A model generated the notes under the pieces. That model had not been told where the DNA came from, made no database searches, and saw only the letters and a list, made by a program, of their open reading frames with translations. From a virus: a stretch of 64,000 bases of DNA. Below are positions 1 to 43,478 of this stretch, one piece after another (the first letter of the stretch is position 1; every line of letters begins with the position of its first letter). A program made the translations under genes and the position numbers. Location: positions 15,892-79,891 of IMG/VR virus record IMGVR_UViG_3300023184_000082, one strand, 5' to 3'.

Positions 1-2
1 AT

Positions 3-818
3 GGCATAAGAACATACAAGCGTCATCCAAGCACAGATTTGGGTCAACAAATTGAGCAAATTGTTCAAGATCCATCAATGTTGCTGGAAAGTTTTGGCAT
101 AGAGCCAACAAAAGATCTTGAAAATCTTGTTGACAAATTGCGCAGGATGTGGGCAGAGCCACAAGAGTCAACAGCGCCTTCGGGCGGGTCATTCCGACAA
201 GTGTTGTTCGATGGCGTCCCTTTCCAGTCTCAATTCACGATCAATCCGTGGGGATCCCTGCCACAGGCAAACAGTGGAAATGTGCTAAATGGTCAATACG
301 CAGGAGAGACAGGCGCTGGTTCAACAGGAAATGTCACAAGGGTCAGAAACGTCCGAGGAACAGGAACGCCAGAGCCGGAAGAGACCGCAACGAGCAGGGC
401 AATGGACATACTCACGGGACGTGTAAAAGCTACGGCAACAAAAGCCCGGGTTGCTCCTGCTCCGGCGGTAAATATCATCAAGGCAATCAAGGGTTCAATC
501 CTAGATGATTGGCATGCAGTGATATCAAGCGGAGAAGAACCCGATGTTCCCGATGCAATAGATCTCATTATCAAATACCTAAGCAAAAAGCCGCGCGATC
601 AAAAAACAATCCGACAACTATTTGATCTCCCGTCATACACCATGCCAAGCGACGAAGAACTTGGTGTGGGGGAGTGGTCGACTGATAAGGAGTATTGGGA
701 CGCTGTCCTCCAAGACGCGGCCCCAAATAATAATGAGGAAATGCAAAAGAAAATCGATGAGATTATAGAACAACTCACCAAGGAGAAAGGTGAATCAGCA
801 AGCCCTCGTCTTGTGTGA
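3..818 (+). CDS. C-terminal part of a hypothetical protein (5'-truncated by window edge)
   Basis: The frame of ORF 39..818 is open back to position 3 (GIRTYKRHPSTDLGQQ...) and the called start is a TTG with no RBS. Stop TGA at 816-818. No recognisable domain. Confidence 0.7.
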   Translation, partial: GIRTYKRHPSTDLGQQIEQIVQDPSMLLESFGIEPTKDLENLVDKLRRMWAEPQESTAPSGGSFRQVLFDGVPFQSQFTINPWGSLPQANSGNVLNGQYAGETGAGSTGNVTRVRNVRGTGTPEPEETATSRAMDILTGRVKATATKARVAPAPAVNIIKAIKGSILDDWHAVISSGEEPDVPDAIDLIIKYLSKKPRDQKTIRQLFDLPSYTMPSDEELGVGEWSTDKEYWDAVLQDAAPNNNEEMQKKIDEIIEQLTKEKGESASPRLV

Positions 819-845
819 TGCAGCATGCGGCTCAATCAATCGGCA

Positions 846-854
846 TGCTATACT
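846..854 (+). promoter_or_regulatory. extended -10-type promoter motif TGCTATACT
   Basis: TGnTATACT just upstream of RBS AAGGAG (861-866) and ATG 870. No clear -35. Confidence 0.5.
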
Positions 855-869
855 TTCCACAAGGAGAAC

Positions 870-1157
870 ATGATGGCCATTACCAAGAAGAACGAAAACT
901 TTTATTACGAGTATGACGAGGATAACGAAGACGGCACGACAAATACCGTTTGGATGCCTGTTGAAAAACTCAAGGGAAGGCAGAGAAAGCAAGCCATCAA
1001 CGAGCTTCAGCGCGGTCGATCAGCAAATGTCAAGAATCGCGATCTGGAAGAAAGCGAAAATCTTCTTAAGTGGATGAAGAAAAAGAAATCATTTTCTGGC
1101 CGAGATATTGCGAAACTTGAACAACGCATCTCGGCAGAAAAAAAGCTTTTCGATTAA
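870..1157 (+). CDS. small hypothetical protein
   Basis: Start revised to ATG 870, in frame with ORF 825..1157 and directly after AAGGAG. Charged, helical-looking sequence. Confidence 0.75.
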   Translation: MMAITKKNENFYYEYDEDNEDGTTNTVWMPVEKLKGRQRKQAINELQRGRSANVKNRDLEESENLLKWMKKKKSFSGRDIAKLEQRISAEKKLFD

Positions 1158-1175
1158 AAATCCAAGGATTATGCA

Positions 1176-4100
1176 ATGATTCCGGATAAAACAGGGGAGA
1201 TTTTGTCGGCAGTCCATGCTCAAAAAACTGGCGGCATTCCAGATACCGCTGCACGTGGTGGGGGCTACATAGTTCAGCACAAACCTGACGTACCTCGTCC
1301 TGATGAACCAGGATCACTTGCATTGCCTCTTGTTGATCAGGCTCATGTGCGCAGTTCAGGAATGAGCGCTAGCGCAATAAGCAGTGATGTTGCAGATATT
1401 GGCACCATGCCGCCTTCTTCCCTGACGCATGGGTCGCCAATGATAACTGCAATGCAAACACCGCGGCAAACTGAACCAAAATGGACAGAAAATGGTCTTC
1501 AATATATCATCAATGGGCAACCTGTAAATGTGCTGTCAAATGGTCAGGATTTGTCGGTGCAGCTTCCAACGGTTACCGGCGCTCCTACTGCACCTCTAGG
1601 CAAGCCTGAGGATGTATCGTCTCACTTGCTGTTTGATCCATCAAAAATTTCACGCAATTCAGGCGGATTGGATAATCTTACATCACAGCAGCTCGACCGT
1701 ATAACTGCATCGATAGGCGCACATGAGGCCAATCAAAAACTCTTGTTCGGGATACAGCGGATCTTCCGTGACGGAGGAAGGGATCCTGCTGCTGGGGAGC
1801 TGACACAGAAACAAAAAGATGATCAGCATAAAGACAAGAAATATGCCAGTCTTGAGCGAAAATACACAAAGGATGGACGCTTGCTTCTGGATGCATTGCC
1901 CCTTACAACTCTCACATCGCTGGCAAGTACAGCCCGTGATCGCGCCAATGCTGCCTACAAGGCGTGGTACGAAAACTCAGGCCCACTTGAAGGAAAAGCA
2001 ACAAAAGCCGATATCAATCAATTGCAACAAATGCGCATGTCTCGCAAAAAACAGTTTGAGTACGGTTTTGAGCCCGGCAATGGCATCATGCGGGTATTCA
2101 CACTTGACGACGGTCGAAAATTCTCCGAGCCAGTTATTCCCGGAAAAATATCCACCTCAAGGGAATTGCCTGATTCCGTGGATCATTTTTCCGGAGTATT
2201 ATTTCCGGGAGATCTTGCTCAATCCGAAGACGAGTTGATAAAGTTTTTGGGCAATCCATCGTATCACCGCGATGCATCCGGAAAAACTGTTCTGGAAGCT
2301 CATAGCGATGCGATGAGAGGCTTCATGGACAATCATCTTGAGCAAGGCATTTTCCCAATGTTGGGAGATAACCGACCAATTTCCAGAGAAACATCGCGTA
2401 CACCTAGTCGTGCGGAAGGTATCGCCGGAGAAGAGTCTGCTGCGTCCAAGACTGCATTGGTCGAAGAGAGGGTTAAGGATGACTTTGCTCTTCTCATGGA
2501 TGAAGTTGCCGAGAAAAGGGCTTCCATGGAGATTGCCCTGCAACAAATCCTTGAGACAATTGCATCGCCTACAGAAAAGTTGGATCTTCCTGAGATCTTT
2601 AAAAAAATAGAAGCCTTGGGCGACACTAAGCTTCCTGAAGCAAAAAAGTTGGAAGAAGAATCCATAGGCGTCCTTCAGCAACGTGAACTGCAGGAAAAAA
2701 TACAGGCTATCAAGTTTTCTGATGGAAAACCATTACGATTGGAAGATCTCATTTCCCCTGCTGTCGATTCCGACGGGAATTCACTTCCGGGTTCATTGCT
2801 TGTCAATATGTCGACACATGGATTCATAGGAAAAACCGCGGCAACTCCTGGCGCGAGGCATCCACTAGCGTCTGTCGCAGCCATTGAGGCGCAAGCCTAC
2901 AACACGGGAAGGATCAGCAAGGGACTTACGACACTTGATGCAGCCAAAGCACGTATTGATCCGGACAATCTCAAGAAAGAAAAAGATTTTGCCGAAAAAA
3001 TCAAAGCCTATTTACAGCAAGCAATGGAAGCATCTCTTCTCAAGTACCGAGCTGATACTCAGCAAACAATAAAAATCCCAACGTTACGTCAAAAAGTACC
3101 CCTCCCTGTTGACGCTGCAATGAAATTTCACAAAAAGCAATTATTTTCCGCACTGCAAATACCAGTGACGACAGGCGTGGATGTAAAAAAATACGCAATG
3201 AGACTGCCTCAGGACCAAGGATCCGAAAAATTAGTTCCAGTCATACGTCTTGTAGACCTCAGACCCGACGAATTTGTCGATCAAGTATCATCCTCAATTT
3301 TCAGCCGTGATGAAGCAAATATTTTTGATACTAAATTAAGTGCTGCGTATGAAAATTTCTCAAGTGCCAAACAAAACATGCAGACGGTTTCAGGGCCCGA
3401 AAGCGAAGCGGCGGTTGCCAATGCACGACAAGGAATTGAGAATGTACTAAAAGAAAATCTTGTCTTGAATGAAACTGAAAGACAAAGCATAGAAAATATA
3501 ATCGGAAAAGATGCCAGTCCATACATAAATCTTGTGAAAAAAGCTCTTCCTAAGGCATTGTTTGACTCATGGCTTGACAAAGTGAAAAATGGCAATTTTC
3601 TAGGCGCCCTGACAATCATGCGGGATCGACTTGACGCAAGTTCCACAAAAACCGCAGCACAACAAAAAATCAAGGCAGACCTTGCGGAGTACACAAGACA
3701 ATTAAGAAATGATGTTTCCTATTATATTCGATCAGAAGGCGAACAAAGCAAAACCCCTACGGGATTATTTTCGCCGAGAATCATTCGCGAAAAGTCACAG
3801 AAATTCACGCCGTATGAAGATTCTACGAATGCCGCATTGTTCAGAAAAGCATATCGGCAATCATTGATAAATTCAGATTCAACGTTATTGGATCCGCAAT
3901 CATTCGATGACGACAAAAGTCCGGAAATGGCAAAGTTTATTGATCAATACCCTCATGTGCTGGTTGATTCCGGACAAGCAGACATCAGGAGTTGGTTTTC
4001 CGAGTCAATACTCAATGCTGCAAAAGACAGGTTTCTTTCATATGAGATTCAACCCAAGAATCCATCAAATATTATACTCCAGTCAACGAGCGCTGCGCAG

Positions 4101-7100
4101 GAGGCGAGAAGCATCATTGACCACATGAGAAAAATGATCGATTACGAAGGTGAATTCCCGTTTGGCGTCCGTACAGATGATCCGAAATCCGATCACCCTT
4201 GGCATGATGCAGAGTGGCATCGAAGGTATACAGTTCCAGGAACCGAATACAAGGAAGACTTTTCAAAAACAGGAGAGTTTGCAACCGGACCTGATGGTTC
4301 TTTTGTGCGCAAAAAAATTAACGTAAAAAAAGACAAAATGCCGGATTACAAAACTGGAGAACTGAAACTTTGGGTACCTACCAAGCAACCTACCGCTGAC
4401 GCACAAGGAAGAATGAAGTACGAAATCAGCAAGGAAGACGACATAAGTTTTCAACCTGAGAAGAGTCTTCTTACTGCGCGGGATTCTAATGGCCTCATGA
4501 TACCGGTAGGATTGCCGAATGGCCTAGATGCAACACAGCTTCAAGGGTACTTCCCCAATCCAACATGGCAAGGTCTTGCAAGAACACCGAATGCTGTTTC
4601 AAAAACTTATGCAGCGCCCATTCTTGCAGCCGTGTATGGCATCACTGGCGATTCTTCTTTTTCAAGGCACCCAGAGTCGCCAATAACCGACGCGGATCTT
4701 AAAAACAAATTACAGGAAGGCATAAATACGTTAAAAAAAGATATCGATACGTACTATGCTAAAGCAACAAAATCTTCAACTGCCGATCCATGGAGACAAG
4801 CACGAGCTGACATGATAGCCATGAGGACATCCAGAGCAGTAGGTTCAGGATCACAGGACATCCTCAAGAAAATTCTTTCTGTGCTGTCAGTAAATAATGA
4901 GGAAATCATGAAGGCCATTGAAGAAAAATATCCCAGAGCTGAACAGTGGCTACCCGAACATGTCAAAGATTTCGAGCTTCTTGCTCAGCTTAACATGCGT
5001 TTGTCTGGAAGCAAAGATGGTAGTGCACCCTCCATGGAAAATATTTTCTCGGGCGATATTCCATCGTATTTTTATCCTGGAAATGACAAGGAAGAAAACG
5101 GAAAAGATGCAGACTGGGTAAAAATGGCACTGGATGTCAAGGCGGATTTGCTGAAAAAATATGCGATACCGGAATTGCCACCCAGTTCCGAAGTGTGGCA
5201 TGAAATTTCTCTTGCTTCTGCTGGACAATTGGTGGCGGACGCCGAAAAAAGAATACAGTTTATTAATGAAATCCAAAACACACCGAGATTGCAAGGAGAA
5301 ATTGCTACTGCAATCAATGAGGCCAAATCGGAAATTGATCAAGCAACATCAAGGTCCCAGCAACAGCAAGCGGTTATGCGTCAACCATTGGATATTGCAG
5401 CGCATTCAAGAGACGTTCTGGATAGATGCATCGCTGAAAAGGTCATGCCATTTGATATATCAAGTTCCCTGTATCCTGACCAAATGAGAGGGAGCGGAAG
5501 TCCGGTGGCATTTTACGCTTTGGGCGACACTGATGCAATAGATTCCCACAACATGATCCATATCGCCTCAGACCCATTGGCGGTCAGATACAATCCTTCC
5601 GCGACATTGAATGAAGCGGGAGAAGCAATTGACTCCATATCAAGATTGCTTTTGTCAAGGAAATCAGGAAATTCACCCGCAAATGCAGGGTTGCCGCTTC
5701 GAACACGCAAGCAACATCAAAAAGATCATGTTCAATCCATGATTGCAGAAATGAAAAAAATATATGATATGACTTCAGGGGACAAGAATCCTTTGTATGA
5801 CATCATAAATGAGATAAATCCCCATGTTGCACCAATTCTCAAGTTGAGCAGCGATCATTTTGACACGCCAGATTGGGAAACCAAATTCCTGAATGCCCTT
5901 GATGCCTATTGCAAAGCGCAGGACATATCGATGATAACTCCTGCTGATGAACATTATCCATCTCGATTGCTTGCCATGCCGGAATCATGGCAGTTCAAAA
6001 CAGAACAAGGCTCCATGATTTCGCATGTTCCAAAAATGATATTTGTAAAGGGAAACATTGAAAAATTCAAACAAAAAAAATTCGATCTTGACAGGACTGT
6101 TGCATGCATTGGCACGGCAAAGTTAAAAGAAGGCGACCCTCTCGATGCAGAAGTGGCGCAGATTGCAAAAAATACCATACAGCAACTGGCAAAGGACAAC
6201 TGGATAATTGTATCTGGAATGGCGAAGGGAATTGATAGCATTTGTCACGGTCAGGCGCTGGAAAGCGGAACGGCAACCATAGGAATATTGCCTCATGGAA
6301 TCACCTCGACACCGGGCGCCTCACAAGCAGAACTCTACAAAAGGATGACGGACCCCAAAGGAATGGGGGTTGTGATGACCGAGTATCTTCCGGGGATGCA
6401 AAATTACGGATCCACAGAAGGAAGTACCGTAAAACAGAACTTGCACAGGAACAGACTTCAGGCAGGACTATCAATTGCAACAGTCATGTTTTCCTCGACA
6501 GCCAGACAAAATTGGATCAAGGAAAACATGGGTGAATACCAGATACAAGCCAATGAAAATGGACTCCTCACAGAAAGAGACATTGAAGACGCCGGTTCAA
6601 TGGCAACCCTTCGGCATTCGTTATATCAAGCAAGAAGAAATTTTGTCCTTGATCCATCCAGCATCGTTGATTCTAATAACAATCTCATTTACAAGGACAT
6701 GGATCTATCAAAAGGCGTCATGACGGGAAACTTCGAGGCAATGGAGAATCTCAACGCAACGAGTTTTAATGCATTAGAGATATCAGGATTGATCGATAAC
6801 CTGAATATCGCCTACGCAACTCGAAATGAACCCAAAAGAACATTTATTGGAGATGGAGCAAACGCTGAACGAGTCCTTACAAACCTTGGAATGACCCAAT
6901 CCCCTGATGAAACCAACGAGTCGTTTTTAGACAGGGTAACACAAGAAATAATGAAGAAGATTGCAGCAAAGGATGCTGATACCAAGGCGGTATTGAAAAA
7001 AATTTCAGACTCATACAATCCGGACGGATCCACCAAGAAATCAATTGTCATTTATGCTCCTGATGAAAATGATGCAAGCTTGAAGCAATTGATCATGGCT

Positions 7101-10100
7101 CGCGAAATGGGAATACCGACCGTTGTTGTTCCGGCAAAGGTAAACTACTCCAAGACAAAGATGGCCGACGAATATGATGAAAATGGAGAACTCACAAGAA
7201 TAAATTCACTCAAGGACTGGGCTCCATTAAAACCAGATACTGTTCACGCACAAAAGGATGAACTGACCGCCACATTGAAGGGAAGCACATACACATTTGG
7301 ATCGGCGGAAGCGCTCTATTATGCCTTTTTGTATGAGAATCCGGAAGACATAAGCAGCATTTCAGATCTTTCAAAAAGACAGCAGGGAATGAACGAAATC
7401 AGGAGAAAAGCAAAACAGGATCAAGAGGCAGGAAGAATCCTTGAACTCACTCGTGACCAGAAAGTTTCAAGGATGTATGATGCTCTCAAGATAAAATTCA
7501 GCAATAAGAATTATGCTAACGTCCTTGCAAAGACCGGAAATGCCACTATTGTGCACGAAAGTCCTGACGCATTCTGGGGCGTCATTGGGGATAGTTCACC
7601 CAAGAATCAAGCAAGCATCGGAACTGGGGCAAATGTCGTTGGTAAATTGCTCATGTTCATTCGCGATCAGCAAAGATCCAATAGCAACACATTGACTCCC
7701 AATGAAATCAGAAGCATGCACTCCACGCAGGAGAATTGTCAAATTCCTTGGAACAAGGCGCTGCCATTTTTTGGCATGTATGCCCAAGATGTGGATTCAT
7801 CAAAAATAACTTCATTGAGTAATGAGCCTCTTCGTGTGGGAATTACCGGATCAAGGGAAGGCTTGACCAGCAGCATGATAGAGGCTGCCTTGCGCGGATC
7901 ACTCAAGATGAATTCTGGCAGCCGCTTGATAACGGAAGATGCAACTGCTGCTCTAGGTCTTTCCGATTTTGAAAAACGAATGGGCATAAAAAGACAAGCG
8001 GTAAGCTCGAATTCGGCGACCAGAAAAATCACCCCTTTGTCTTTCGTGCATGGAGGCGCAAAAGGAGCGGATTCTCAGGCAATAAACTACATATTGTCAA
8101 ACGTAAAAAGATTTGCCATTGATGGAATTGAAAATTCCATAACGGAAATACCATTTGATGCCATGTCTTCAGACGAAAAGGATTTTCAAGATGGCACGGC
8201 TGGCAACAGAAGAAACTCGAAAATCGTGGCGAATTCCGATGTTCTCATTGCAATCTGGGACGGGAAAAGCAGAGGCACCATGCATGCCGTCATGACGGCA
8301 ATACAGCAAGGCAAGCCTGTTCATCTTTGGTCACCTGACGGGAGAGGAGGCATGAAACTTCAGGAGATATACCCATCCAGCAAAGGAAACATGTCCGTTA
8401 TTTCCCCTTCGGATCCATCTCCCAGGGAAAACTCCACACTAAGCATCGCCCAAGATGAACATCCATCACATATTCGCACCTCCACATTGAATCTTGCGGA
8501 AAAATTGCGCACACAGACCTTGACATTGGGAGTAAGTCATGATTCTCCATACATGAGAGGAATTCGAGGAAGCCTGGTCAACTCCGTGAGGCCAAAATCA
8601 GTAAGCATCATGTATTCTCCTGCTCCGTATTCTGCCCAAGAACCAAGTGACGATTTTGCTGTGCCTCGCGGTCATTATCGTGGAGATCATGAATTATTTC
8701 ACGGAAGAATTCACAAGGGTGCGACAAGATACGGTGATCGCGCTTTGCCGGTGGATAGTCCTGACAGTTGGGAATCATTTTCTGGTTTTGAACAGAAAAC
8801 ACCGCTTCAAAAAAGAATTGAAAAAATGGCGAAAGAACGAGCAAGACAAGAAGAAGTAGATTCGTTGTCACTCGGAGGCGCAAAAGAAAAGGTTTCGTCA
8901 ACACCGGGGATGGAAGCTATTGCCATGGCAGTAAGGGGGAACAACAGGGCTTCAAGATACGCATCGGTTGCATCGCAAAATCCCTCGGCTGAAACGTCAG
9001 CGTGGCTCGATGAGTACAACAATGAAAATCCAAAGTTCTTTTCTCCCGAATCAGACAGCGGAAAAAGAATGGCAAAATCAACCTCGCGATCAATGGTTAT
9101 AAAAAATGATCTTTTCCCGAATTTGTTCGCAAAAGTGTCGATTTCCTTTGCTGACAATGAAGCTTTGGGAAGGAGCAGGGATCAGCGCGAATTCAATCAA
9201 GCGACGGCAAAGTTCCACGTGATGTTGTTTCACAGACAACAGCAAACTGATGCATCTGGAAAACCAGCAGATCCATTGATAGTTCCTGTTGGAAGCCTCG
9301 TGTATGAAGTGCCAAGATCTCCTGCGCTTACAAGTCTTTCCGCATCAAGAACTGATTCAGGAAGAGGTGTGTTCGGCGAAGGATACATGAACTATCAACG
9401 AGTCATAAGCATGCTAGCCACAGATGTGGCTAGCAATCTCCTTGCATCCCATCAGGCAACGTCAATTCATCAGGAATTGACCAGACATGCAAGTGGGCTT
9501 TCAACCTTGCTGCAGAACAATGCAAGATATCAGGAATTGAAGAAAAAGAGGGATCGGACAGCAGAAGAAACGTCCGAAATGAAATTGCTGGACGCAAGTC
9601 GTAAAAAACTTGGCACTATTGGCATACCCTTGACTACAGCACCGCAATCTCACGGTCTTGCCACATTGAGGACAAGACAGGAAGACAATCTTGGCGACTT
9701 CATTCATACACATCTTTCATCCACAACATTGCAGCCGAGCTTGCTGCCCACAGCCAGAGGAACAGTAAGTGATCGTCTATCTAGTGCACGAGATCTTTCC
9801 CAGTACGATCCCATTAAAATACCGATAGAGCAGATCAATGAGTACATCGAGAGCCTTCGTGCACACACACAAACCATTGGCTCCCGAGAAGCGTGGCCTC
9901 CTGCGCCTGCGTTGGAAAGCATAGGGCAAACTACCAGAAGAAACAAGCAATTATCTGCAAATCCCAACATCAGATATCAAGCATCACATCAGCAGAGAGG
10001 AAGTTCCCCTCAGTCCGGAATGCTGATGTTATTCAAGGCTCTTGGTGGGGAGGTAAAAGCCGCTGCAGACCATACTCCTCTCGACAAGGATCGCGGAATA

Positions 10101-13100
10101 TATGGAGACGCAACCAGATTGACGGGATTGGCCGGTATTAATCAATTATCATCTCGAAAAATGAATGTAAACGCTGTAGCCTTGCTTTTTGGTTCGCTTC
10201 TTTGGGACAAAACACAAAGAGGACCCTTTGCCACTTTGCAAAATCCAGAAACAAGCACACTTTATCACCTTATTGCTACTCCTTCGAATTCCAGCACAAT
10301 CAAGTATGATGGCAATTTTATGAAACTCTTGCAACAGGGAAGAATTTTCAATTCGCTGAAAAATGTACAGGCCGGGACAATGTCTGCTGACAATTTTCAA
10401 GAAAATGTTGTTTTCAAGAATAACATGTCAGATGTTCAACTTTGGCATGATATTCAAATTGCTGATCTTTTATCAAGCCAAACCAACATGTCTGATGGAC
10501 TCAGAAATGTGGCAAACGACATATTGACAGAGATAGGTGGTAAAAAAACACTGCTGGATGGCAAATACACTCGTGATGGAGTAGCAACAAATCCTGTGGT
10601 GGTCTCGTTGGCCACAAGATGGGCGATGTTTCGTGACAATCTTTTCTGGATGGGAAGAGATGCAAATTTTTCTCAGGATTCATACGCATTAAAAGATGAT
10701 GTACGGAGAAGAATGGCAGAAGCGACAAAGGTCTTGGGTGGCTCGGCTCCTGCGCTTCTGCTTGCGGGACATGTTGCCGAGAATTCAGATGCGTTTTCGC
10801 ACATGAATAATTCCTTGGCGGGAAAAATGCAGGAGACTATCAAGAGAATGATGTCCCAAGGCAGCAAGGGACCAAGAAGCTTGTACGAAACGCTATCTGA
10901 TTTGAAGGATTCCATTTCCCGCGCAAAAAGCAATTTTGTTTTCTTGGAAAATATCAGACATGATGGCCAGGAAAACATGATAAAGATGCGTCCATTGGCT
11001 TCATCAAATGGAGTACAGACAGATCCGCTTGCAGTATCCATCAAGAAATCCTTGGGAATCTCAGCAGGAACTACGTTACTTACGTTACCGGCATATCTGT
11101 CGTCAGCATTTGACCTGATTGCGTCGTTGGATATTTCGTTTGGGGCGGTAAAAAGGAAAATCGGCTTTGAGTCAACGATTGCAAATATCTCAAAATCAAA
11201 TATTGTAGATCAATCAGGCATAACGGAATCCAAAGATACAAAGTTTGTCTTTGTCCCAGGATCCGTATGGCAAGCGACCAAGATGCCCTTTGATGGAATG
11301 AAAGATACACAAGGAAACCTTGTCGTTCCCAATAAACTAAATCCGACTGCCTATGCTCTGGTTGCATCTCGACATCAAGAAATAAACAGGATATTTTTTG
11401 GGCTGACAGGAGGAAAATCATCCGATCAGGAGTTGATTGACGAAAGCGCTCTTTTTTCTAGTGATCAAAAAAACGAACCTCAAGACAGAAGCGCTTCCCA
11501 TTATGTATATATCGGAACGCCGATGGGCAAACAAATTGACGAAGGTCTTGGGGTATTGAATGCCAATGAAAAAGAAAGAATGGCTGAATACCAAAAAGCG
11601 GTCGCAATTGCTATCGGGCATGCAGCAAACATAAAGGGAGCGACCAGACTGCCATCCAATGCCCAATGGTTTCTTCCAAGTGATTCATCAACATTCAAGA
11701 TTATGCAGTCGCAAAATAAGGATATCTTTGAAAAGATCGCTCTCGATGCAATATCCGGAGGAGCTCAAGGATCACTGTCCAGCGAGAAGGATTTGCGAGA
11801 TAGGCAAATACGGGCACTCGTCTGGGCAAGAATGTATATCAATGCAATCCATGAAGCCAAGAGGGACGAAGAAATCAAGACTGCGGAAAAAAATTCGCCA
11901 TCACCATATACAGTGCATGCTCCAGAGGAAGCATCGTTATTCAAGGATTTTGGCGATGAGGATAAAAAGCTTGCGCAAGATTGTTCTTTCATCAAAATAC
12001 GCGCCCTTCAAGATGCATCAATCGATTCGACATCTGAAGCATTGACGTACAGAGACGTTGTTCCAACTTCACTTTCAACACCTTCCCCAACCATTTCCGA
12101 TTCCAATAGTGTCCGCAGCATGACAACGAGGATTTTTACGCTTGAATCAGAGATTCAAAAGGTAAAGCGTGACTTGGAGATGCCCCTGCTGAGCGCAGCA
12201 ACCAAAAGAGATCTTGAAGCAAAGAAGAAGGAACTAACCGATACTCTGTCCAAGCAAGTCGATGTTCGCGCCGCAACAATACGCGCGTCAATGACCACTG
12301 AAGAACTGGCAATCGTTGCAGACAAGAAAAAAATGCTTGATTCCATGGATGAGATAATGAATGACGAAAATGAATGGGAAGCTTTTGATGATGCAGTCGA
12401 TAGCGCAGAAAAACTCAGAAACGTTGATCCTGAGAACCCTGATTTCTTTACCGAAATCACGCACAGTCCTGAGGTTCTTGACATAGATTTTGAAAATCAG
12501 GATTCCATAGATGAGGCGGCATCTGCGCTTGAACAAGGGCAATTGTATTTGCAAAAAGCACTTCCTGTTCTAGCGGCGTACAAGGACACATTAGCGCAAC
12601 TTCAATCAGATGAGGATTATCCTATTCCATCGTATTCTCTTGACAACTCACTTGCTGGAAGCGGGAAAAAGAACATTTCCTATTTCCAATGGTATGAAAA
12701 TCTTGACGACCATCAGAAATCAAGTTCTCAAAAAAATCTCATGAGAAGATATGTGGCTCTCTTGGAATCTTCATTGCTACGACAATTTTTTATCAATGAG
12801 CAACTCAAGAAGGCAACCGGAGATGGACAAAAGTTTACAGTTGCCAGAATGACCAATTATTTCGATGAGTCTTCCGCGTTGCGCAAACGAGAAAAAGATC
12901 GCAATGCATTCATTGAACAATTGACACCAAATGAGTCAATGCTATTGGGAAGTCCGCGAGTGAGCAAAGTTTTTGGTGAAAATCCTCTCAGCGAACCGAC
13001 CGTTGATACATTGTCAATAAAACAACTGAAGGGAATAAGCAGGGGTGGGACATCCATTGAAGATGCCATTTCAAAAGAGCAGGTCATTCCTGTAACTAAT

Positions 13101-13994
13101 GCGATAATAGATTTCATGACATATCATTGGAAGCCAGTCAATGTCGGACTGGATACGAATATATTGGGCGAACTGTTTTCTTGGGGATCGCCATTATTTA
13201 CGTATTTGAAGAAAAACGGCGACCAGTCGTTATTCTGCATAGACGCAACGTCAGGTTCATCTATTTCATTTTCTTCTTCACTGCTCAAGAAGAGAGATGA
13301 AATAGTTGCGGACATTGCGCTTACCAAAGAAAACGTCAGGAGTGGGAATCTGACGCCAGATGAGGAGATTGAGTCAACACTGAAGCTGGAAAGACTTGAA
13401 CAAGACAAGAAACGAATCATTGAAGCGATCAATGACGAAACCACCAAGACAAACCTCATTGAAAAAGCATTCAATGCGTTTCGCTTGGAGGCAAGGGAGG
13501 CATACCAATGCATCTCTTCCGGATCAGAAGCGTTCAACGGAAAACTTTCCTTGGACTTCTGGAGAGATCAGTTCATCGATCTCAAGGCACCAAGGGCCAT
13601 TCAAATACAGTCAGCAACGGGAGAACCAACAAAGCAATTCACAAAACACGCGTGGCCACAATCGGAACGCAGGAAAATGGCGCGATCTGCCCAGCAGAAA
13701 TCATCAACAATGACGGAGTCCATACAAATAAGAGCCGCAACGGATTTCCCGCCGCTGAAGCCAGAATCCTTCAGCGCTTGGGCGACGGAGCTGAGCGCGG
13801 GGCAGCAAGATCCCGACAGCGTTGACACGCAGATGGAGGTTTTCAAGACAAGGCTGCGAAAATCATTCGGAATCGTGTACCATGTTCCGAAGACACGGGC
13901 TCCAAAACCGCCCCCTCGGCAGGCGCAGTTGCATAAGAGCCGCAAGGTTACATTCTTTGTCCGCAAGGCAGCATTTGACAGCAAAGGCAGGTAA
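1176..13994 (+). CDS. giant (4272 aa) polyvalent protein with DprA/Smf-type SLOG, NADAR (YbiA-like) and YspA-type SLOG domains; probable virion-internal protein
   Basis: Uninterrupted 12.8-kb ORF with RBS AAGGA. DprA-like motifs at ~5925-6660: DEHYPSRL, VACIGT, IVSGMAKGIDSICH, TIGILPHGI, VMTEYLPG, RNRLQAGLS, GSMAT. NADAR motifs at ~7290-7670: FGSAEALY, MYDALKIKF, LAKTGNATIVHESPDAFWG, GANVVGKLLMFIR. Second SLOG at ~7830-8330: VGITGSR, FVHGGAKGAD, AGNRRNSKIVANSDVLIAIWDGKSRGT, GKPVHLW. Confidence 0.85.
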   Translation: MIPDKTGEILSAVHAQKTGGIPDTAARGGGYIVQHKPDVPRPDEPGSLALPLVDQAHVRSSGMSASAISSDVADIGTMPPSSLTHGSPMITAMQTPRQTEPKWTENGLQYIINGQPVNVLSNGQDLSVQLPTVTGAPTAPLGKPEDVSSHLLFDPSKISRNSGGLDNLTSQQLDRITASIGAHEANQKLLFGIQRIFRDGGRDPAAGELTQKQKDDQHKDKKYASLERKYTKDGRLLLDALPLTTLTSLASTARDRANAAYKAWYENSGPLEGKATKADINQLQQMRMSRKKQFEYGFEPGNGIMRVFTLDDGRKFSEPVIPGKISTSRELPDSVDHFSGVLFPGDLAQSEDELIKFLGNPSYHRDASGKTVLEAHSDAMRGFMDNHLEQGIFPMLGDNRPISRETSRTPSRAEGIAGEESAASKTALVEERVKDDFALLMDEVAEKRASMEIALQQILETIASPTEKLDLPEIFKKIEALGDTKLPEAKKLEEESIGVLQQRELQEKIQAIKFSDGKPLRLEDLISPAVDSDGNSLPGSLLVNMSTHGFIGKTAATPGARHPLASVAAIEAQAYNTGRISKGLTTLDAAKARIDPDNLKKEKDFAEKIKAYLQQAMEASLLKYRADTQQTIKIPTLRQKVPLPVDAAMKFHKKQLFSALQIPVTTGVDVKKYAMRLPQDQGSEKLVPVIRLVDLRPDEFVDQVSSSIFSRDEANIFDTKLSAAYENFSSAKQNMQTVSGPESEAAVANARQGIENVLKENLVLNETERQSIENIIGKDASPYINLVKKALPKALFDSWLDKVKNGNFLGALTIMRDRLDASSTKTAAQQKIKADLAEYTRQLRNDVSYYIRSEGEQSKTPTGLFSPRIIREKSQKFTPYEDSTNAALFRKAYRQSLINSDSTLLDPQSFDDDKSPEMAKFIDQYPHVLVDSGQADIRSWFSESILNAAKDRFLSYEIQPKNPSNIILQSTSAAQEARSIIDHMRKMIDYEGEFPFGVRTDDPKSDHPWHDAEWHRRYTVPGTEYKEDFSKTGEFATGPDGSFVRKKINVKKDKMPDYKTGELKLWVPTKQPTADAQGRMKYEISKEDDISFQPEKSLLTARDSNGLMIPVGLPNGLDATQLQGYFPNPTWQGLARTPNAVSKTYAAPILAAVYGITGDSSFSRHPESPITDADLKNKLQEGINTLKKDIDTYYAKATKSSTADPWRQARADMIAMRTSRAVGSGSQDILKKILSVLSVNNEEIMKAIEEKYPRAEQWLPEHVKDFELLAQLNMRLSGSKDGSAPSMENIFSGDIPSYFYPGNDKEENGKDADWVKMALDVKADLLKKYAIPELPPSSEVWHEISLASAGQLVADAEKRIQFINEIQNTPRLQGEIATAINEAKSEIDQATSRSQQQQAVMRQPLDIAAHSRDVLDRCIAEKVMPFDISSSLYPDQMRGSGSPVAFYALGDTDAIDSHNMIHIASDPLAVRYNPSATLNEAGEAIDSISRLLLSRKSGNSPANAGLPLRTRKQHQKDHVQSMIAEMKKIYDMTSGDKNPLYDIINEINPHVAPILKLSSDHFDTPDWETKFLNALDAYCKAQDISMITPADEHYPSRLLAMPESWQFKTEQGSMISHVPKMIFVKGNIEKFKQKKFDLDRTVACIGTAKLKEGDPLDAEVAQIAKNTIQQLAKDNWIIVSGMAKGIDSICHGQALESGTATIGILPHGITSTPGASQAELYKRMTDPKGMGVVMTEYLPGMQNYGSTEGSTVKQNLHRNRLQAGLSIATVMFSSTARQNWIKENMGEYQIQANENGLLTERDIEDAGSMATLRHSLYQARRNFVLDPSSIVDSNNNLIYKDMDLSKGVMTGNFEAMENLNATSFNALEISGLIDNLNIAYATRNEPKRTFIGDGANAERVLTNLGMTQSPDETNESFLDRVTQEIMKKIAAKDADTKAVLKKISDSYNPDGSTKKSIVIYAPDENDASLKQLIMAREMGIPTVVVPAKVNYSKTKMADEYDENGELTRINSLKDWAPLKPDTVHAQKDELTATLKGSTYTFGSAEALYYAFLYENPEDISSISDLSKRQQGMNEIRRKAKQDQEAGRILELTRDQKVSRMYDALKIKFSNKNYANVLAKTGNATIVHESPDAFWGVIGDSSPKNQASIGTGANVVGKLLMFIRDQQRSNSNTLTPNEIRSMHSTQENCQIPWNKALPFFGMYAQDVDSSKITSLSNEPLRVGITGSREGLTSSMIEAALRGSLKMNSGSRLITEDATAALGLSDFEKRMGIKRQAVSSNSATRKITPLSFVHGGAKGADSQAINYILSNVKRFAIDGIENSITEIPFDAMSSDEKDFQDGTAGNRRNSKIVANSDVLIAIWDGKSRGTMHAVMTAIQQGKPVHLWSPDGRGGMKLQEIYPSSKGNMSVISPSDPSPRENSTLSIAQDEHPSHIRTSTLNLAEKLRTQTLTLGVSHDSPYMRGIRGSLVNSVRPKSVSIMYSPAPYSAQEPSDDFAVPRGHYRGDHELFHGRIHKGATRYGDRALPVDSPDSWESFSGFEQKTPLQKRIEKMAKERARQEEVDSLSLGGAKEKVSSTPGMEAIAMAVRGNNRASRYASVASQNPSAETSAWLDEYNNENPKFFSPESDSGKRMAKSTSRSMVIKNDLFPNLFAKVSISFADNEALGRSRDQREFNQATAKFHVMLFHRQQQTDASGKPADPLIVPVGSLVYEVPRSPALTSLSASRTDSGRGVFGEGYMNYQRVISMLATDVASNLLASHQATSIHQELTRHASGLSTLLQNNARYQELKKKRDRTAEETSEMKLLDASRKKLGTIGIPLTTAPQSHGLATLRTRQEDNLGDFIHTHLSSTTLQPSLLPTARGTVSDRLSSARDLSQYDPIKIPIEQINEYIESLRAHTQTIGSREAWPPAPALESIGQTTRRNKQLSANPNIRYQASHQQRGSSPQSGMLMLFKALGGEVKAAADHTPLDKDRGIYGDATRLTGLAGINQLSSRKMNVNAVALLFGSLLWDKTQRGPFATLQNPETSTLYHLIATPSNSSTIKYDGNFMKLLQQGRIFNSLKNVQAGTMSADNFQENVVFKNNMSDVQLWHDIQIADLLSSQTNMSDGLRNVANDILTEIGGKKTLLDGKYTRDGVATNPVVVSLATRWAMFRDNLFWMGRDANFSQDSYALKDDVRRRMAEATKVLGGSAPALLLAGHVAENSDAFSHMNNSLAGKMQETIKRMMSQGSKGPRSLYETLSDLKDSISRAKSNFVFLENIRHDGQENMIKMRPLASSNGVQTDPLAVSIKKSLGISAGTTLLTLPAYLSSAFDLIASLDISFGAVKRKIGFESTIANISKSNIVDQSGITESKDTKFVFVPGSVWQATKMPFDGMKDTQGNLVVPNKLNPTAYALVASRHQEINRIFFGLTGGKSSDQELIDESALFSSDQKNEPQDRSASHYVYIGTPMGKQIDEGLGVLNANEKERMAEYQKAVAIAIGHAANIKGATRLPSNAQWFLPSDSSTFKIMQSQNKDIFEKIALDAISGGAQGSLSSEKDLRDRQIRALVWARMYINAIHEAKRDEEIKTAEKNSPSPYTVHAPEEASLFKDFGDEDKKLAQDCSFIKIRALQDASIDSTSEALTYRDVVPTSLSTPSPTISDSNSVRSMTTRIFTLESEIQKVKRDLEMPLLSAATKRDLEAKKKELTDTLSKQVDVRAATIRASMTTEELAIVADKKKMLDSMDEIMNDENEWEAFDDAVDSAEKLRNVDPENPDFFTEITHSPEVLDIDFENQDSIDEAASALEQGQLYLQKALPVLAAYKDTLAQLQSDEDYPIPSYSLDNSLAGSGKKNISYFQWYENLDDHQKSSSQKNLMRRYVALLESSLLRQFFINEQLKKATGDGQKFTVARMTNYFDESSALRKREKDRNAFIEQLTPNESMLLGSPRVSKVFGENPLSEPTVDTLSIKQLKGISRGGTSIEDAISKEQVIPVTNAIIDFMTYHWKPVNVGLDTNILGELFSWGSPLFTYLKKNGDQSLFCIDATSGSSISFSSSLLKKRDEIVADIALTKENVRSGNLTPDEEIESTLKLERLEQDKKRIIEAINDETTKTNLIEKAFNAFRLEAREAYQCISSGSEAFNGKLSLDFWRDQFIDLKAPRAIQIQSATGEPTKQFTKHAWPQSERRKMARSAQQKSSTMTESIQIRAATDFPPLKPESFSAWATELSAGQQDPDSVDTQMEVFKTRLRKSFGIVYHVPKTRAPKPPPRQAQLHKSRKVTFFVRKAAFDSKGR

Positions 13995-14642
13995 ATGGTG
14001 GAAACCAGCAAAAACAGCGCCAACGGATATGGGCATTGGGCCATTCAAGTCAACGGAATGCCGCTTTATGTTTCGGGAGATTTCTCTTCCCTGCATCCTC
14101 ATCATGCCCTTTCGCGTCAGAAAACAAACATCAAGGGCGCCAAGGCGACCAAAATGCACGGATTAGCCGCGCAACACGACATCAAGGATGTTATCATTAT
14201 CAACGGAGAAGATGTTCCACACAACAATGTCGGGAAGCTTTCTCAGTTGATACGAAAGATACTGAAGAAAGAATCCCGAACCGTCAGGACATCATCAAGG
14301 AAACCCAAGGAATATGACATGTCATTCCCGAACACCACATTGACGGGAACGACGCATGAGTCATCCGGCGGAATCCTGTTTGTAGTTTCTGATGCAAATA
14401 ATCATCCCGTAATGATCACAAAGAGACCTTCAAGCATCAAGGATATTGAGGGAGCATTGCTTACCGATGTGTCTGAGTATCTTGCCCATGAACAACATCG
14501 GGCTGCGTGGTTTGTGCATCATGACATGAGCAATGACATTCGACATGCTCCTGATCATATTCTCCCCGATCACTCTCCATTGGCTTGCTGGCCATGTCAC
14601 AAAGGAAAAATGATATGGCGTTATCCTTCTGCCATACGGTAG
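13995..14642 (+). CDS. hypothetical protein
   Basis: 215-aa ORF starting immediately after the giant gene's TAA (TAAATG), consistent with translational coupling. His-rich C-terminus. Confidence 0.75.
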   Translation: MVETSKNSANGYGHWAIQVNGMPLYVSGDFSSLHPHHALSRQKTNIKGAKATKMHGLAAQHDIKDVIIINGEDVPHNNVGKLSQLIRKILKKESRTVRTSSRKPKEYDMSFPNTTLTGTTHESSGGILFVVSDANNHPVMITKRPSSIKDIEGALLTDVSEYLAHEQHRAAWFVHHDMSNDIRHAPDHILPDHSPLACWPCHKGKMIWRYPSAIR

Positions 14643-14656
14643 AGAGTTTGGAGTGA

Positions 14657-27548: not shown

Positions 27549-28532
27549 ATGAATCAAACAGATACCATTAGACAACATCGCAAAAGCCTAGCGGAAATGG
27601 ACGGAGTAAGTGCAACCTTTGAGGTTCCTCTCACGTATATCAAATCGTTTGTCGGAAACTACACGACATCGATGGGTGATATCAAGAAGGGAAGAATCAT
27701 CGAAGGCATTGCGTCTACCGAAGACATGGATCAGCAAGGCGAAATCGTTGTGCAAGACAAGATGGATTGTTCATACCTGCTTGAAAAAGGATATCTGAAC
27801 TGGAATCATTCCCACTCCCCTGAAGACCAGATCGGCAAGCCGCTTGAAGTGATCAAGCTTGCCGGAGGACCATCGACACCAAAGGGACTGCCGTGTACAT
27901 TCTTCCGCGCCTTGTTATTTGAAAGCATGCCTCGCGCAGAAGCCGTCTGGACATTGAGCAAGGCGCTTGAGGAATCCGCAGGGGTTGGGGAGGATCGACA
28001 TCTGGGGTTTTCGGTAGAAGGTGGCGTTCGAGTCCGGCACAACAATATCCTGATGGAGACCATGGTCAGGCACATGGCCGCTACGCATGAACCGGTAAAT
28101 GCACAAGCTGTGGCACGATGCGTCCTTGCGAAAAGCCAGGGATTCAAGGTAGATGATTCAGTACTCATCGATACCCTTGATGACAATGTTCCGCATTTTA
28201 TCTTCAAGAGTTTTTCGCAGCTTTCAAAATCACTGCTGTTCTCGAAGAACATGATGGTTGATGCAGCACCTGAGGCATCAATGAATCTTGGAGGCGCCAA
28301 GCCGCTCTTGACAGAAAACCTTTCTGGGGGGCGGCGCAAAAACAAGTCCCGGAAATCCTTTGCAGATACGCTGTATAGCGAATGCATCCACGGAAATACG
28401 TGTAAATCCGGAGATACATTCAAGAAGGGATATCAAGGAGCACTTGATCATCTGGTGTATTGCGGAGGGATGAATCCTGTGGATGCGGCAAATGCACTCT
28501 TGTCGCATATCCGTATGTTAAAATCCAATTAG
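27549..28532 (+). CDS. prohead (maturation) protease
   Basis: IIEGIASTEDMDQQGEIV, GYLNWNH (catalytic His), IGKP, LGFSVEG (catalytic Ser): HK97-family protease of SPO1/Twort type, upstream of scaffold and capsid genes. Confidence 0.9.
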   Translation: MNQTDTIRQHRKSLAEMDGVSATFEVPLTYIKSFVGNYTTSMGDIKKGRIIEGIASTEDMDQQGEIVVQDKMDCSYLLEKGYLNWNHSHSPEDQIGKPLEVIKLAGGPSTPKGLPCTFFRALLFESMPRAEAVWTLSKALEESAGVGEDRHLGFSVEGGVRVRHNNILMETMVRHMAATHEPVNAQAVARCVLAKSQGFKVDDSVLIDTLDDNVPHFIFKSFSQLSKSLLFSKNMMVDAAPEASMNLGGAKPLLTENLSGGRRKNKSRKSFADTLYSECIHGNTCKSGDTFKKGYQGALDHLVYCGGMNPVDAANALLSHIRMLKSN

Positions 28533-28551
28533 AATCTTTAAGGAGGAAATA

Positions 28552-30063: not shown

Positions 30064-30086
30064 GAAAGAAAGAAGGAGGATCGAAA

Positions 30087-43467: not shown

Positions 43468-43478
43468 AAGGAGAATCG

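What the first reader, a model, noticed from the sequence alone, without database searches (positions are those of the whole stretch)
5925..8330. SLOG(DprA)-NADAR-SLOG(YspA) cassette embedded in the middle of a 4272-aa phage protein
Three recognisable domains sit within ~800 aa, flanked by more than 1500 aa of unassignable sequence on each side. The DprA-like domain keeps SGxAxGID and RNRxxAGLS but has GTA in place of the usual GSR/GTR. A possible degenerate third SLOG remnant (SIVIYAPDENDASLKQLIMAREMGIPTVVV, ~7041-7130) precedes the NADAR. DprA normally binds incoming ssDNA and loads RecA, so protecting the injected genome is an alternative role to nucleotide sensing (inference).
Basis: partly seen in the sequence, partly recalled or inferred. 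Interest (0 to 1): 0.8.

Follow-up and report, generated by a model that had tools for sequence, protein, structure and literature searches.

The report
Giant phage protein with ADP-ribose cassette
A 4272-residue protein of an uncultured freshwater tailed phage carries, in its best-conserved middle part, a DprA-like DNA-binding module, a NADAR ADP-ribose-removing module and a YspA-type nucleotide-binding module; it is most likely a very large anti-defence protein that protects the phage DNA, a new variant of known "polyvalent" phage proteins.

Summary
ORF 1176-13994 (+) encodes 4272 aa. Pfam, PHROG and PADLOC profiles and two structure models place three domains at the stated coordinates: a DprA/ShosA-like SLOG (aa 1579-1775), a NADAR (aa ~1992-2172) and a YspA/YAcAr-type SLOG (aa ~2217-2406). 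No profile assigns the ~1580 aa before or the ~1870 aa after.

The suggested third SLOG remnant is a real, strongly conserved helix plus beta-alpha-beta unit just before the NADAR. Nothing supports calling it a SLOG.

The cassette is the best-conserved part of a rare family of 4200-4450 aa proteins. A search of 1.84 billion representatives found the three-domain arrangement only in this family. A free-standing 275-aa NADAR+YAcAr protein also exists.

The gene lies directly upstream of the head genes. In four lineages it shares its contig with a second giant gene (4202 aa, UvrD helicase).

Best reading (0.55): a polyvalent-type, probably virion-delivered anti-defence protein. DprA would tether it to DNA, NADAR (T4 AdfN-like His type) would remove ADP-ribose from DNA bases, and the SLOG would bind or process ADP-ribose-derived nucleotides. 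Packaging and all activities are inferred.

Caveats: the DprA GSR arginine and the NADAR phosphate-binding lysine are both replaced.

Verdict: a new variant of a known kind, of moderate interest. This scan's other notes on the same genome overlap with this finding.

The parts
1176..13994 (+). Giant ORF of 4272 aa (P0001). AAGGA ribosome-binding site upstream of the ATG.
   Evidence: Full-length homologues P0002-P0005 and P0177.
5910..6500 (+). DprA/ShosA-like SLOG (Rossmann) domain, aa 1579-1775. It probably continues to about aa 1830 across an insert.
   Evidence: Pfam PF02481 E 1.9e-29. PADLOC ShosA E 9e-34. Fold: ShosA 8zva Z 12.4 (rmsd 3.5, 151 aligned) and DprA 3uqz Z 10.8. GSR arginine replaced: GTA-K.
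6915..7130 (+). Its fold class is not assigned.
   Evidence: Model mc6438e8938d5, pLDDT about 80-89 here. Conserved in P0177 and in the 4693-aa P0066. No SLOG hit.
7149..7691 (+). NADAR domain, aa ~1992-2172. E2045 and H2127 are invariant in the family; the lysine position is L2052.
   Evidence: Pfam PF08719. Profile against YbiA 2b3w, E 3.6e-15. Fold: YbiA Z 14.1 and P. nicotianae NADAR with ADP-ribose 8bau Z 13.5. Viral NADAR models.
7824..8393 (+). YspA/YAcAr-type SLOG domain, aa ~2217-2406, with a ~55-aa insert after strand 1. Motifs GITGSR, HGGAxGxD, RRN and WDGxSxGT are invariant. This is the most conserved stretch of the whole protein.
   Evidence: phrog_289 E 2.7e-17. Fold: YpsA 2nx2 Z 11.9, TM1055 Z 10.0, ThsA SLOG 7uxs Z 8.2. 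Nearest relatives are all Pfam YAcAr. Conservation.
3..818 (+). C-terminal end of the upstream giant ORF (4202 aa, P0006), which has a UvrD/PcrA-type helicase at aa 3130-3896. It is a conserved partner gene.
   Evidence: Homologues lie on contigs of the same lengths as the homologues of P0001.
27549..31982 (+). Head maturation protease (27549-28532), an acidic 503-aa protein (28552-30063, possible scaffold) and the major head protein (30087-31982). These are the context genes for the packaging inference.
   Evidence: PHROG phrog_1028 E 4e-32 and phrog_752 E 4e-40.

Best explanation
The ORF encodes a giant multidomain ('polyvalent'-type) protein of an uncultured freshwater myovirus. It is probably made with the virion proteins, packaged, and delivered with the DNA together with its conserved partner, a 4202-aa protein carrying a UvrD helicase.

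Its conserved central cassette works at the interface between DNA and ADP-ribose:
- The DprA/ShosA-like domain holds the protein on phage (single-stranded) DNA.
- The NADAR domain, which has the histidine typical of T4 AdfN/gp30.3, removes ADP-ribose that host ADP-ribosyltransferases such as DarT1 put on guanine.
- The YspA/YAcAr SLOG binds or further processes ADP-ribose or related NAD+-derived nucleotides.

Shown here: domain identities, order, conservation, gene context, and pairing with the helicase giant. Inferred: packaging and injection, DNA binding, hydrolase activity and its substrate, and the SLOG ligand.
For: Domain identities.

Conservation: the cassette is the best-conserved region between the 42%-identical homologues; aa 2341-2400 are 85% identical. 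Catalytic-type residues E2045 and H2127 and all SLOG motifs are invariant down to the 28% relative.

Related architecture: a free-standing 275-aa NADAR+YAcAr protein aligns collinearly with both domains. This matches the published observation that phages combine SLOG with NADAR/Macro and that some such genes sit among virion genes (PMC9503650).

NADAR biochemistry from the literature: NADARs hydrolyse ADP-ribosyl-guanine (PMC11543638). Phage NADARs, including the His-type AdfN of T4, defeat DarTG1, and T4 AdfN seems to need a localising factor (PMC11825919). DarT1 modifies ssDNA, and DprA and ShosA bind ssDNA (PMC11961720), so the fusion makes mechanistic sense.

Context: one co-directional block runs from the two giants through the head protease and major head protein to the sheath and tail lysins.

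Precedent: polyvalent proteins are defined as multidomain proteins encoded next to packaging or virion genes and predicted to be injected. P1 DarB and UvrD-containing giants are cited there (PMC5512222).
Against: There is no direct evidence of packaging. No MuF, portal-fusion or other known packaging domain was found. The proposed hydrophobic-x-K-S/A/G 'address' motif is not enriched: 19 observed against 18 +/- 4 expected.

The arginine of the DprA GSR motif (SpDprA R115) is replaced by alanine. The DprA motifs have decayed in the P0177 lineage, so DNA binding may not be the selected function.

The NADAR lysine that the literature calls essential for efficient hydrolysis (K50 in P. nicotianae, K95 in E. 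coli C7) is Leu in this clade, though it is Arg in the P0177 clade.

The 2022 survey favours small ADP-ribose-derived signals, not DNA adducts, as the main substrates of phage NADAR and SLOG domains.

More than 3400 aa of the protein remain unexplained.
Confidence: 0.55

Rival explanations
1. The cassette degrades or sequesters small NAD+-derived immune signals or toxins (cyclic ADP-ribose isomers, ADPr-1''-P and the like). All three domains, including the DprA-like SLOG, would act as nucleotide binders or N-glycosidases rather than on DNA.
For: [quoted passage not shown] The last SLOG resembles the ThsA SLOG that binds 3'cADPR, but only at Z 8.2. Loss of the DprA GSR arginine and of the NADAR lysine fits altered ligands.
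Against: The His-type NADAR is the type shown to act on DNA adducts in T4. DprA and ShosA relatives are DNA binders. The conserved partner is a DNA helicase.
Confidence: 0.2
2. The protein is not packaged. It is an intracellular replication, recombination or repair factor: DprA loads a recombinase on ssDNA, the UvrD partner unwinds, and NADAR and SLOG serve NAD+-dependent repair. It would be encoded next to the head genes only by gene order.
For: Jumbo phages often keep a DprA copy that has been proposed as an extra ssDNA-binding protein for recombination (PMC7824862). There is no packaging domain or enriched cleavage motif. Pieces of the sequence occur in three metatranscriptome libraries, but those libraries may contain DNA.
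Against: A size of 4272 aa with ~3400 aa of non-enzymatic sequence is unusual for a soluble repair factor. The gene sits in one co-directional block with head, sheath and tail genes. Large multidomain proteins in that context are the published signature of delivered proteins.
Confidence: 0.15
3. The DprA-like domain mimics the ShosA/PsyrA antitoxins and neutralises ShosTA- or PsyrTA-type toxin-antitoxin defences. The other two domains would be accessory.
For: The best profile score of the domain is to a PADLOC ShosA model (E 9e-34, 115 bits), with a second hit to PsyrA. The best fold match is ShosA 8zva at Z 12.4. Phages are known to carry orphan antitoxin-like enzymes.
Against: Direct sequence scores to S. 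pneumoniae DprA (31.7 bits) and ShosA (29 bits) are tied. ShosA models are themselves DprA-like, so this does not discriminate. The model used for the fold match has low confidence (pLDDT 51.7). The DprA motifs are the least conserved of the three domains in distant relatives.
Confidence: 0.05
4. The protein is mainly structural (an internal head or ejection-channel protein). The three domains would be inherited passengers without present catalytic function.
For: Most of the length has no enzymatic signature. The very distant giant P0066 keeps the backbone segments but has no Pfam-detectable domains, and it has Lys in place of the NADAR glutamate.
Against: Within this family the cassette is the most conserved region, and its motif residues are invariant. 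That pattern argues for selection on function.
Confidence: 0.05

Closest known systems
Polyvalent proteins of phages and conjugative elements (Iyer, Burroughs, Anand, de Souza, Aravind 2017, PMC5512222); prototype of a delivered giant: phage P1 DarB
   Same: Very large single polypeptide with several unrelated conflict-type domains. Encoded by a tailed phage beside virion genes. A UvrD-type helicase occurs in the same context.
   Different: That paper never mentions NADAR or SLOG, and mentions DprA only as part of a cellular system. No MuF, methylase, peptidase or ART domain is detectable here. About 80% of the length is unassigned. Here two giants form a conserved pair.
Phage NADAR anti-DarT factor AdfN (T4 gp30.3) and DarG1/NADAR antitoxins (PMC11825919, PMC11543638, PMC11125620)
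   Same: NADAR fold (Z 14.1 and 13.5). Conserved first glutamate. Histidine at the last-strand catalytic position, as in the T4-type phage NADARs.
   Different: Embedded in a 4272-aa protein instead of a ~150-200 aa free protein. The phosphate-contacting lysine is leucine. It carries a conserved N-terminal helix plus beta-alpha-beta extension. Single-sequence searches do not reach any solved NADAR.
Viral SLOG+NADAR(+Macro) architectures and neighbourhoods (Iyer, Burroughs, Anantharaman, Aravind 2022, PMC9503650); example here: P0015, 275 aa NADAR+YAcAr
   Same: Same NADAR-then-YAcAr SLOG order, with collinear similarity in both domains.
   Different: The survey describes these as typically standalone or small proteins. 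Here the dyad is joined to a DprA-like SLOG and buried in a giant protein.
DprA/Smf and the DprA-like antitoxin ShosA (PDB 3uqz, 8zva, 9vzo)
   Same: Pfam DprA above threshold. SGxAxGID and RNRxxAGLS motifs. Rossmann-type SLOG fold.
   Different: GSR/GTR arginine replaced (GTA-K). ~25-aa insert before the last beta-alpha-beta. No recognisable C-terminal DprA winged-helix domain. An N-terminal SAM-like part could not be assessed.

Membership tests
DprA/Smf (Pfam PF02481, SLOG superfamily) | Profile match above the curated threshold | tested here: met
   102.8 bits against a cut-off of 29.6, aa 1579-1775.
DprA/Smf (Pfam PF02481, SLOG superfamily) | G-S/T-R motif after strand 1, with the DNA-contacting arginine (SpDprA R115) | tested here: not met
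   GTA-K in P0001 and GTT-K in P0005. The alignment to 3uqz puts A1648 opposite R115. K1649 might substitute; this was not tested.
DprA/Smf (Pfam PF02481, SLOG superfamily) | SGxAxGID and RNRxxAGLS motifs | tested here: met
   SGMAKGID and RNRLQAGLS are conserved in the close clades and decayed in the P0177 clade.
DprA/Smf (Pfam PF02481, SLOG superfamily) | DprA Rossmann fold | tested here: met
   ShosA 8zva Z 12.4 (rmsd 3.5, 151 aligned) and 3uqz Z 10.8 (rmsd 2.3, 124 aligned). The model has only moderate confidence here.
DprA/Smf (Pfam PF02481, SLOG superfamily) | ssDNA binding and RecA loading | not testable with these tools
   Needs gel-shift and recombinase-loading assays.
NADAR (Pfam PF08719) | Profile match above the curated threshold | tested here: met
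   41.8 bits (whole protein) and 48.9 bits (domain alone) against a cut-off of 35.1.
NADAR (Pfam PF08719) | YbiA/NADAR fold | tested here: met
   2b3w Z 14.1 (rmsd 2.8, 143 aligned) and 8bau Z 13.5 (rmsd 2.8, 151 aligned). The next unrelated hit is at Z 5.0. The model has pLDDT about 90 over the core.
NADAR (Pfam PF08719) | First catalytic glutamate (E43 in P. nicotianae, E88 in E. coli C7) | tested here: met
   E2045 is invariant in all 10 family sequences.
NADAR (Pfam PF08719) | Phosphate/adenine-contacting lysine seven residues after the glutamate (K50/K95) | tested here: not met
   L2052 in the P0001-P0005 clades and Arg in the P0177 clade. YbiA has Lys at the aligned position. The paper reports that K95A loses efficient hydrolysis and that K95R is active in vitro.
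NADAR (Pfam PF08719) | Last-strand catalytic residue (Glu in YbiA type, Asp in DarT1-linked type, His in T4-type phage NADARs) | tested here: met
   H2127 aligns with the YbiA glutamate and is invariant. This is the phage AdfN/gp30.3 state.
NADAR (Pfam PF08719) | ADP-ribosyl-guanine hydrolase activity | not testable with these tools
   Needs an enzyme assay.
YspA/YAcAr SLOG (Pfam PF10686) | Direct profile match above threshold | tested here: not met
   12.8 bits against 28.2. The 66-position model spans strand 1 to GGAxGAD, which a ~55-aa insert splits here.
YspA/YAcAr SLOG (Pfam PF10686) | Nearest sequence relatives belong to the family | tested here: met
   10 of 10 closest free-standing hits carry PF10686 above threshold. 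phrog_289 E 2.7e-17.
YspA/YAcAr SLOG (Pfam PF10686) | SLOG fold and motifs (GSR after strand 1, GGxxGxD, DGxSxGT) | tested here: met
   YpsA 2nx2 Z 11.9, TM1055 Z 10.0, MCP 2iz5 Z 9.2. GITGSR, HGGAKGAD and WDGKSRGT are invariant.
Third (degenerate) SLOG at aa ~1956-1986 | Any profile or fold similarity to SLOG domains | tested here: inconclusive
   No Pfam SLOG hit at E up to 10. The model shows only a helix plus a two-strand beta-alpha-beta. No SLOG chain appears among the fold matches. The unit is too small for a firm negative.
Polyvalent proteins (Iyer et al. 2017) | Two or more unrelated conflict-type domains in one large polypeptide of a phage or conjugative element | tested here: met
   Three domains in 4272 aa on a viral contig.
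Polyvalent proteins (Iyer et al. 2017) | Gene context with packaging or virion (late) genes | tested here: met
   Same-strand block with the head protease, major head protein, sheath and tail lysins. The head genes start about 13.5 kb downstream. Terminase and portal were not identified on this partial contig.
Polyvalent proteins (Iyer et al. 2017) | Physical packaging in the virion and injection | not testable with these tools
   Needs virion proteomics or infection assays.

The most novel reading that the evidence does not exclude
The two adjacent ~4200-aa proteins form a conserved, virion-delivered 'DNA escort' machine. The UvrD motor of one and the DprA-NADAR-SLOG cassette of the other would travel with the entering genome and strip ADP-ribose (or other base adducts) from it before replication. 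The SLOG would sense the released nucleotide to control the machine. This would be a new class of injected DNA-repair counter-defence, far larger than any known anti-DarT factor.
Probability: 0.15. Interest if true: 0.8.

Novelty: new variant of a known kind. Interest (0 to 1): 0.55.

Why it matters
Phage NADARs were only recently shown to defeat DNA ADP-ribosylation defences, and T4 AdfN seems to need an unknown localising factor. Here a His-type NADAR is physically fused to a DprA-like DNA-binding module and a nucleotide-binding SLOG, inside a giant protein that has a conserved helicase-bearing partner next to the head genes. If the protein is delivered with the DNA, that would show three things:
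- how a phage can bring base-repair activity to its genome at the moment of entry;
- that the domain repertoire of polyvalent proteins extends to the NAD+/ADP-ribose system;
- that isolated domains give tractable tests of SLOG ligands.

The phage is common in lakes. Near-identical DNA occurs in freshwater or lake metagenomes of about ten studies, so the system is ecologically relevant.

Tried and rejected
Synteny was inferred only from matching contig lengths.
- Scans of viral contigs with the cassette and with the family alignment found no relative. The metagenome scan returned only an unrelated DprA locus.
- megablast against phage records found nothing. tblastn found only single-domain hits.
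- A single-sequence search of the NADAR against PDB sequences gave only chance hits. A three-sequence profile was needed.
- ESM Atlas searches of aa 3230-3600 and aa 1376-1580 gave no usable hit.
- NCBIfam and PHROG scans of the neighbouring large ORFs did not identify a portal or terminase.
- The hydrophobic-x-K-[S/A/G] 'capsid address' motif proposed in earlier notes is not enriched in either giant: 19 against 18 +/- 4, and 17 against 15 +/- 4. I do not use it as evidence.
- The most similar cultured capsid genes (Bacteroides phage DAC19) have no giant genes nearby.
- The 860-aa cassette model was poor between domains (pLDDT 25-45), so nothing can be said about aa 1740-1900.
- The fold search gave no SLOG match for the 'remnant'.
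- Pieces of the gene occur in three metatranscriptome libraries. These are contigs from libraries that may contain DNA, so transcription is not shown.

Full report
**The observation.** The window is bases 15892-79891 of a 79.9-kb IMG/VR viral contig that CheckV rates about 49% complete. ORF 1176..13994 on the + strand encodes 4272 aa. It has an AAGGA ribosome-binding site upstream of the ATG.

Three domains are detected:
- Pfam DNA_processg_A at aa 1579-1775 (E 1.9e-29) and Pfam NADAR at aa 2036-2165, both above the curated thresholds.
- phrog_289 at aa 2269-2395 (E 2.7e-17) for the third domain.

Nothing else in the protein reaches significance in Pfam or PHROGs. The coordinates 5925-8330 are right to within a few tens of bases. 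The last domain ends near 8393, and by structure the NADAR begins near 7149.

**The gene is real and under selection.** A search of 5.8 billion clustered proteins found four full-length relatives (4229-4277 aa) with the same three Pfam domains. Over the whole length they are 95, 77, 77 and 42% identical. Cluster look-up added a 4450-aa relative, P0177, which is 28% identical over aa 1376-3597.

An exhaustive HMMER search of 1.84 billion representatives with the cassette found only this family at E <= 1e-30. All other hits were single-domain proteins of 65 bits or less. So the three-domain cassette, as far as sequence can see, is confined to this family.

A sliding comparison with the 42% relative shows that the cassette is the best-conserved part of the protein. 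Identity is 43-60% across it and 85% at aa 2341-2400, against 20-40% in most of the flanks.

**Domain 1, DprA-like.**
- Besides Pfam, it matches a PADLOC ShosA model (E 9e-34) and PsyrA.
- Direct sequence scores to S. pneumoniae DprA and to the ShosA antitoxin are tied.
- The cassette model has low overall confidence (pLDDT 51.7), but this domain reaches about 65-79. Its best fold matches are ShosA 8zva (Z 12.4, rmsd 3.5, 151 aligned) and DprA 3uqz (Z 10.8).
- The alignment to 3uqz puts A1648 opposite the GSR arginine R115. A lysine follows.
- In the distant P0177 clade the SGxAxGID and RNR motifs have decayed.
- Both DprA and ShosA bind ssDNA (PMC11961720).

**Domain 2, NADAR.**
- A single-sequence search did not reach solved NADARs. 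A three-sequence profile did: YbiA 2b3w at E 3.6e-15.
- A second model, covering aa 1900-2175, has pLDDT 78.5 overall and about 90 over the NADAR core. It matches YbiA (Z 14.1, rmsd 2.8, 143 aligned) and the ADP-ribose complex of P. nicotianae NADAR 8bau (Z 13.5). The next unrelated chain is at Z 5.0. It also matches many viral NADAR models.
- E2045 aligns with the conserved catalytic glutamate. H2127 aligns with the YbiA-family glutamate. Both are invariant in ten family sequences.
- A histidine at this position is the published hallmark of T4-type phage NADARs (gp30.3 = AdfN) (PMC11125620; PMC11825919).
- The lysine seven residues after the glutamate is needed for efficient ADP-ribosyl-guanine hydrolysis in E. 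coli C7 NADAR, and arginine can replace it in vitro (PMC11543638). Here it is leucine in this clade and arginine in the P0177 clade.

**Domain 3, SLOG.**
- The direct Pfam hits are sub-threshold: LDcluster4 E 5e-4 and YAcAr E 0.1. The cause is a ~55-aa insert between GITGSR and HGGAKGAD.
- The ten nearest free-standing relatives all carry Pfam YAcAr (the YspA/cpYpsA-related SLOG) above threshold.
- The fold matches YpsA 2nx2 (Z 11.9), TM1055 (Z 10.0), the molybdenum-cofactor carrier protein (Z 9.2) and the ThsA SLOG with 3'cADPR (Z 8.2).
- All SLOG motifs are invariant down to the 28% relative.
- One near relative, P0015 (275 aa), is a NADAR+YAcAr fusion that aligns collinearly with both domains here. 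The NADAR-SLOG dyad is therefore a pre-existing module. This agrees with the survey stating that DNA viruses often combine SLOG with NADAR and Macro domains (PMC9503650).

**The 'third SLOG remnant'.** The segment is real and notably conserved, including in P0177 and in a 4693-aa giant, P0066. P0066 otherwise shares only patches with P0001 and has no Pfam-detectable domain.

In the better model it is a long helix (aa 1914-1944) followed by strand-helix-strand (aa 1957-1985), lying just before the first NADAR strand. No profile or fold search links it to SLOG domains. It may be an N-terminal extension of the NADAR, as DarT1-linked NADARs have, but I could not test packing. The SLOG reading is unsupported rather than refuted.

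**Context.** Immediately upstream lies a second giant ORF of 4202 aa, whose only recognised part is a complete UvrD/PcrA-type helicase at aa 3130-3896. The two giants show no similarity to each other.

Downstream, on the same strand, are:
- a 1316-aa protein with an HD domain;
- a 1314-aa protein;
- a Vsr-like endonuclease;
- the head maturation protease;
- an acidic 503-aa protein;
- the major head protein;
- the tail sheath;
- a VgrG3-like lysozyme protein;
- a CHAP-domain protein.

Homologues of the helicase giant exist in the same four lineages, on contigs of exactly the same lengths as the homologues of P0001: 110306, 38367, 33224 and 37678 bases. As two 12.6-kb genes fill most of a 33-38 kb contig, the pair is conserved down to about 42% identity.

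The capsid protein is only distantly related to those of SPO1-like and Bacteroides DAC phages. Near-identical DNA occurs in freshwater and lake metagenomes of about ten studies from 2013 to 2025. Pieces of it also occur in three metatranscriptome libraries, which does not prove transcription.

**Interpretation.** The architecture and context fit the published concept of polyvalent proteins: large multidomain proteins encoded beside virion genes and predicted to be packaged and injected. P1 DarB and UvrD-containing giants are cited there as relatives of the idea (PMC5512222). That paper does not list NADAR or SLOG domains in such proteins. The 2022 survey calls viral NADAR and SLOG proteins 'typically standalone'. 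So this is a new domain combination in a known kind of protein.

Mechanistically the fusion is coherent. DarT1 ADP-ribosylates guanine in ssDNA, NADARs reverse it, and His-type phage NADARs defeat DarTG1. T4 AdfN seems to need a partner that localises it. Here a DprA-like ssDNA binder is covalently attached. The SLOG could bind the released ADP-ribose or an NAD+-derived signal.

The main weaknesses are:
- no evidence of packaging;
- the lost DprA arginine and the lost NADAR lysine;
- the literature's preference for small-molecule substrates for these phage domains;
- more than 3400 unexplained residues.

The 'capsid address' motif suggested in earlier notes is at chance frequency.

**Verdict.** This is a new variant of a known kind (a polyvalent phage protein with an ADP-ribose-processing cassette and a conserved helicase-bearing giant partner), with interest 0.55. 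Other first-stage notes of this scan on the same genome cover overlapping ground. None had been followed up.

Noticed in passing
L002:4101-16709 (window 3-818 is its end): A second giant ORF of 4202 aa lies directly upstream. Its only recognised part is a complete UvrD/PcrA helicase at aa 3130-3896, which also matches GajB-type PADLOC models. Its homologues sit on contigs of exactly the same lengths as the homologues of the 4272-aa protein, so the two giants form a conserved pair.
   Followed up: partly
window 870-1157: A small 95-aa ORF, rich in charged residues and with its own AAGGAG site, lies between the two giant genes. It was not searched against any library.
   Followed up: no
window 14657-18607: A 1316-aa protein has a marginal HD phosphohydrolase hit (Pfam E 1.8e-4 at aa 886-972; weak Cas3'' HD hit). 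It lies right after the giant and a 215-aa ORF whose start abuts the giant's stop codon.
   Followed up: no
window 23684-24358: A 224-aa ORF among the head-region genes has Vsr/DUF559-like endonuclease similarity (TIGR00632 E 1.7e-5, below the family cut-off).
   Followed up: no
window 10944-11837 (aa 3257-3554 of P0001): A second well-conserved block of unknown fold is shared with the 4693-aa giant P0066 (22% over 338 aa). Part of it (aa 3304-3410) is weakly shared with P0090, a 2275-aa protein that also carries a DprA domain. It may be a backbone or assembly domain of such giants.
   Followed up: partly
P0066 (4693 aa, metagenomic), aligned to aa 1915-2080 of P0001: This distant giant keeps the helix plus beta-alpha-beta unit and the start of the NADAR, but it has Lys where the NADAR catalytic glutamate should be and gives no Pfam hit. 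It looks like a relative in which the cassette has been lost or inactivated.
   Followed up: partly
window 40225-46481: Two ~1000-aa tail-region proteins carry cell-wall lysins: a VgrG3-like C-terminal lysozyme/chitosanase domain (E 2e-51) and a marginal CHAP domain.
   Followed up: no
window 1-16000: DNA at least 99% identical occurs in lake and freshwater metagenomes of about ten studies (2013-2025), and pieces of it in three metatranscriptome libraries. One cluster member is a Global Ocean Sampling fragment. The phage is widespread in fresh water; its host is unknown.
   Followed up: partly
BFVD hits of model mc6438e8938d5: NADAR-like folds also turn up inside fragments of very large proteins of uncultured crAss-like phages (cr272_1, cr131_1). 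This suggests that NADAR domains embedded in giant phage proteins are not unique to this family.
   Followed up: no
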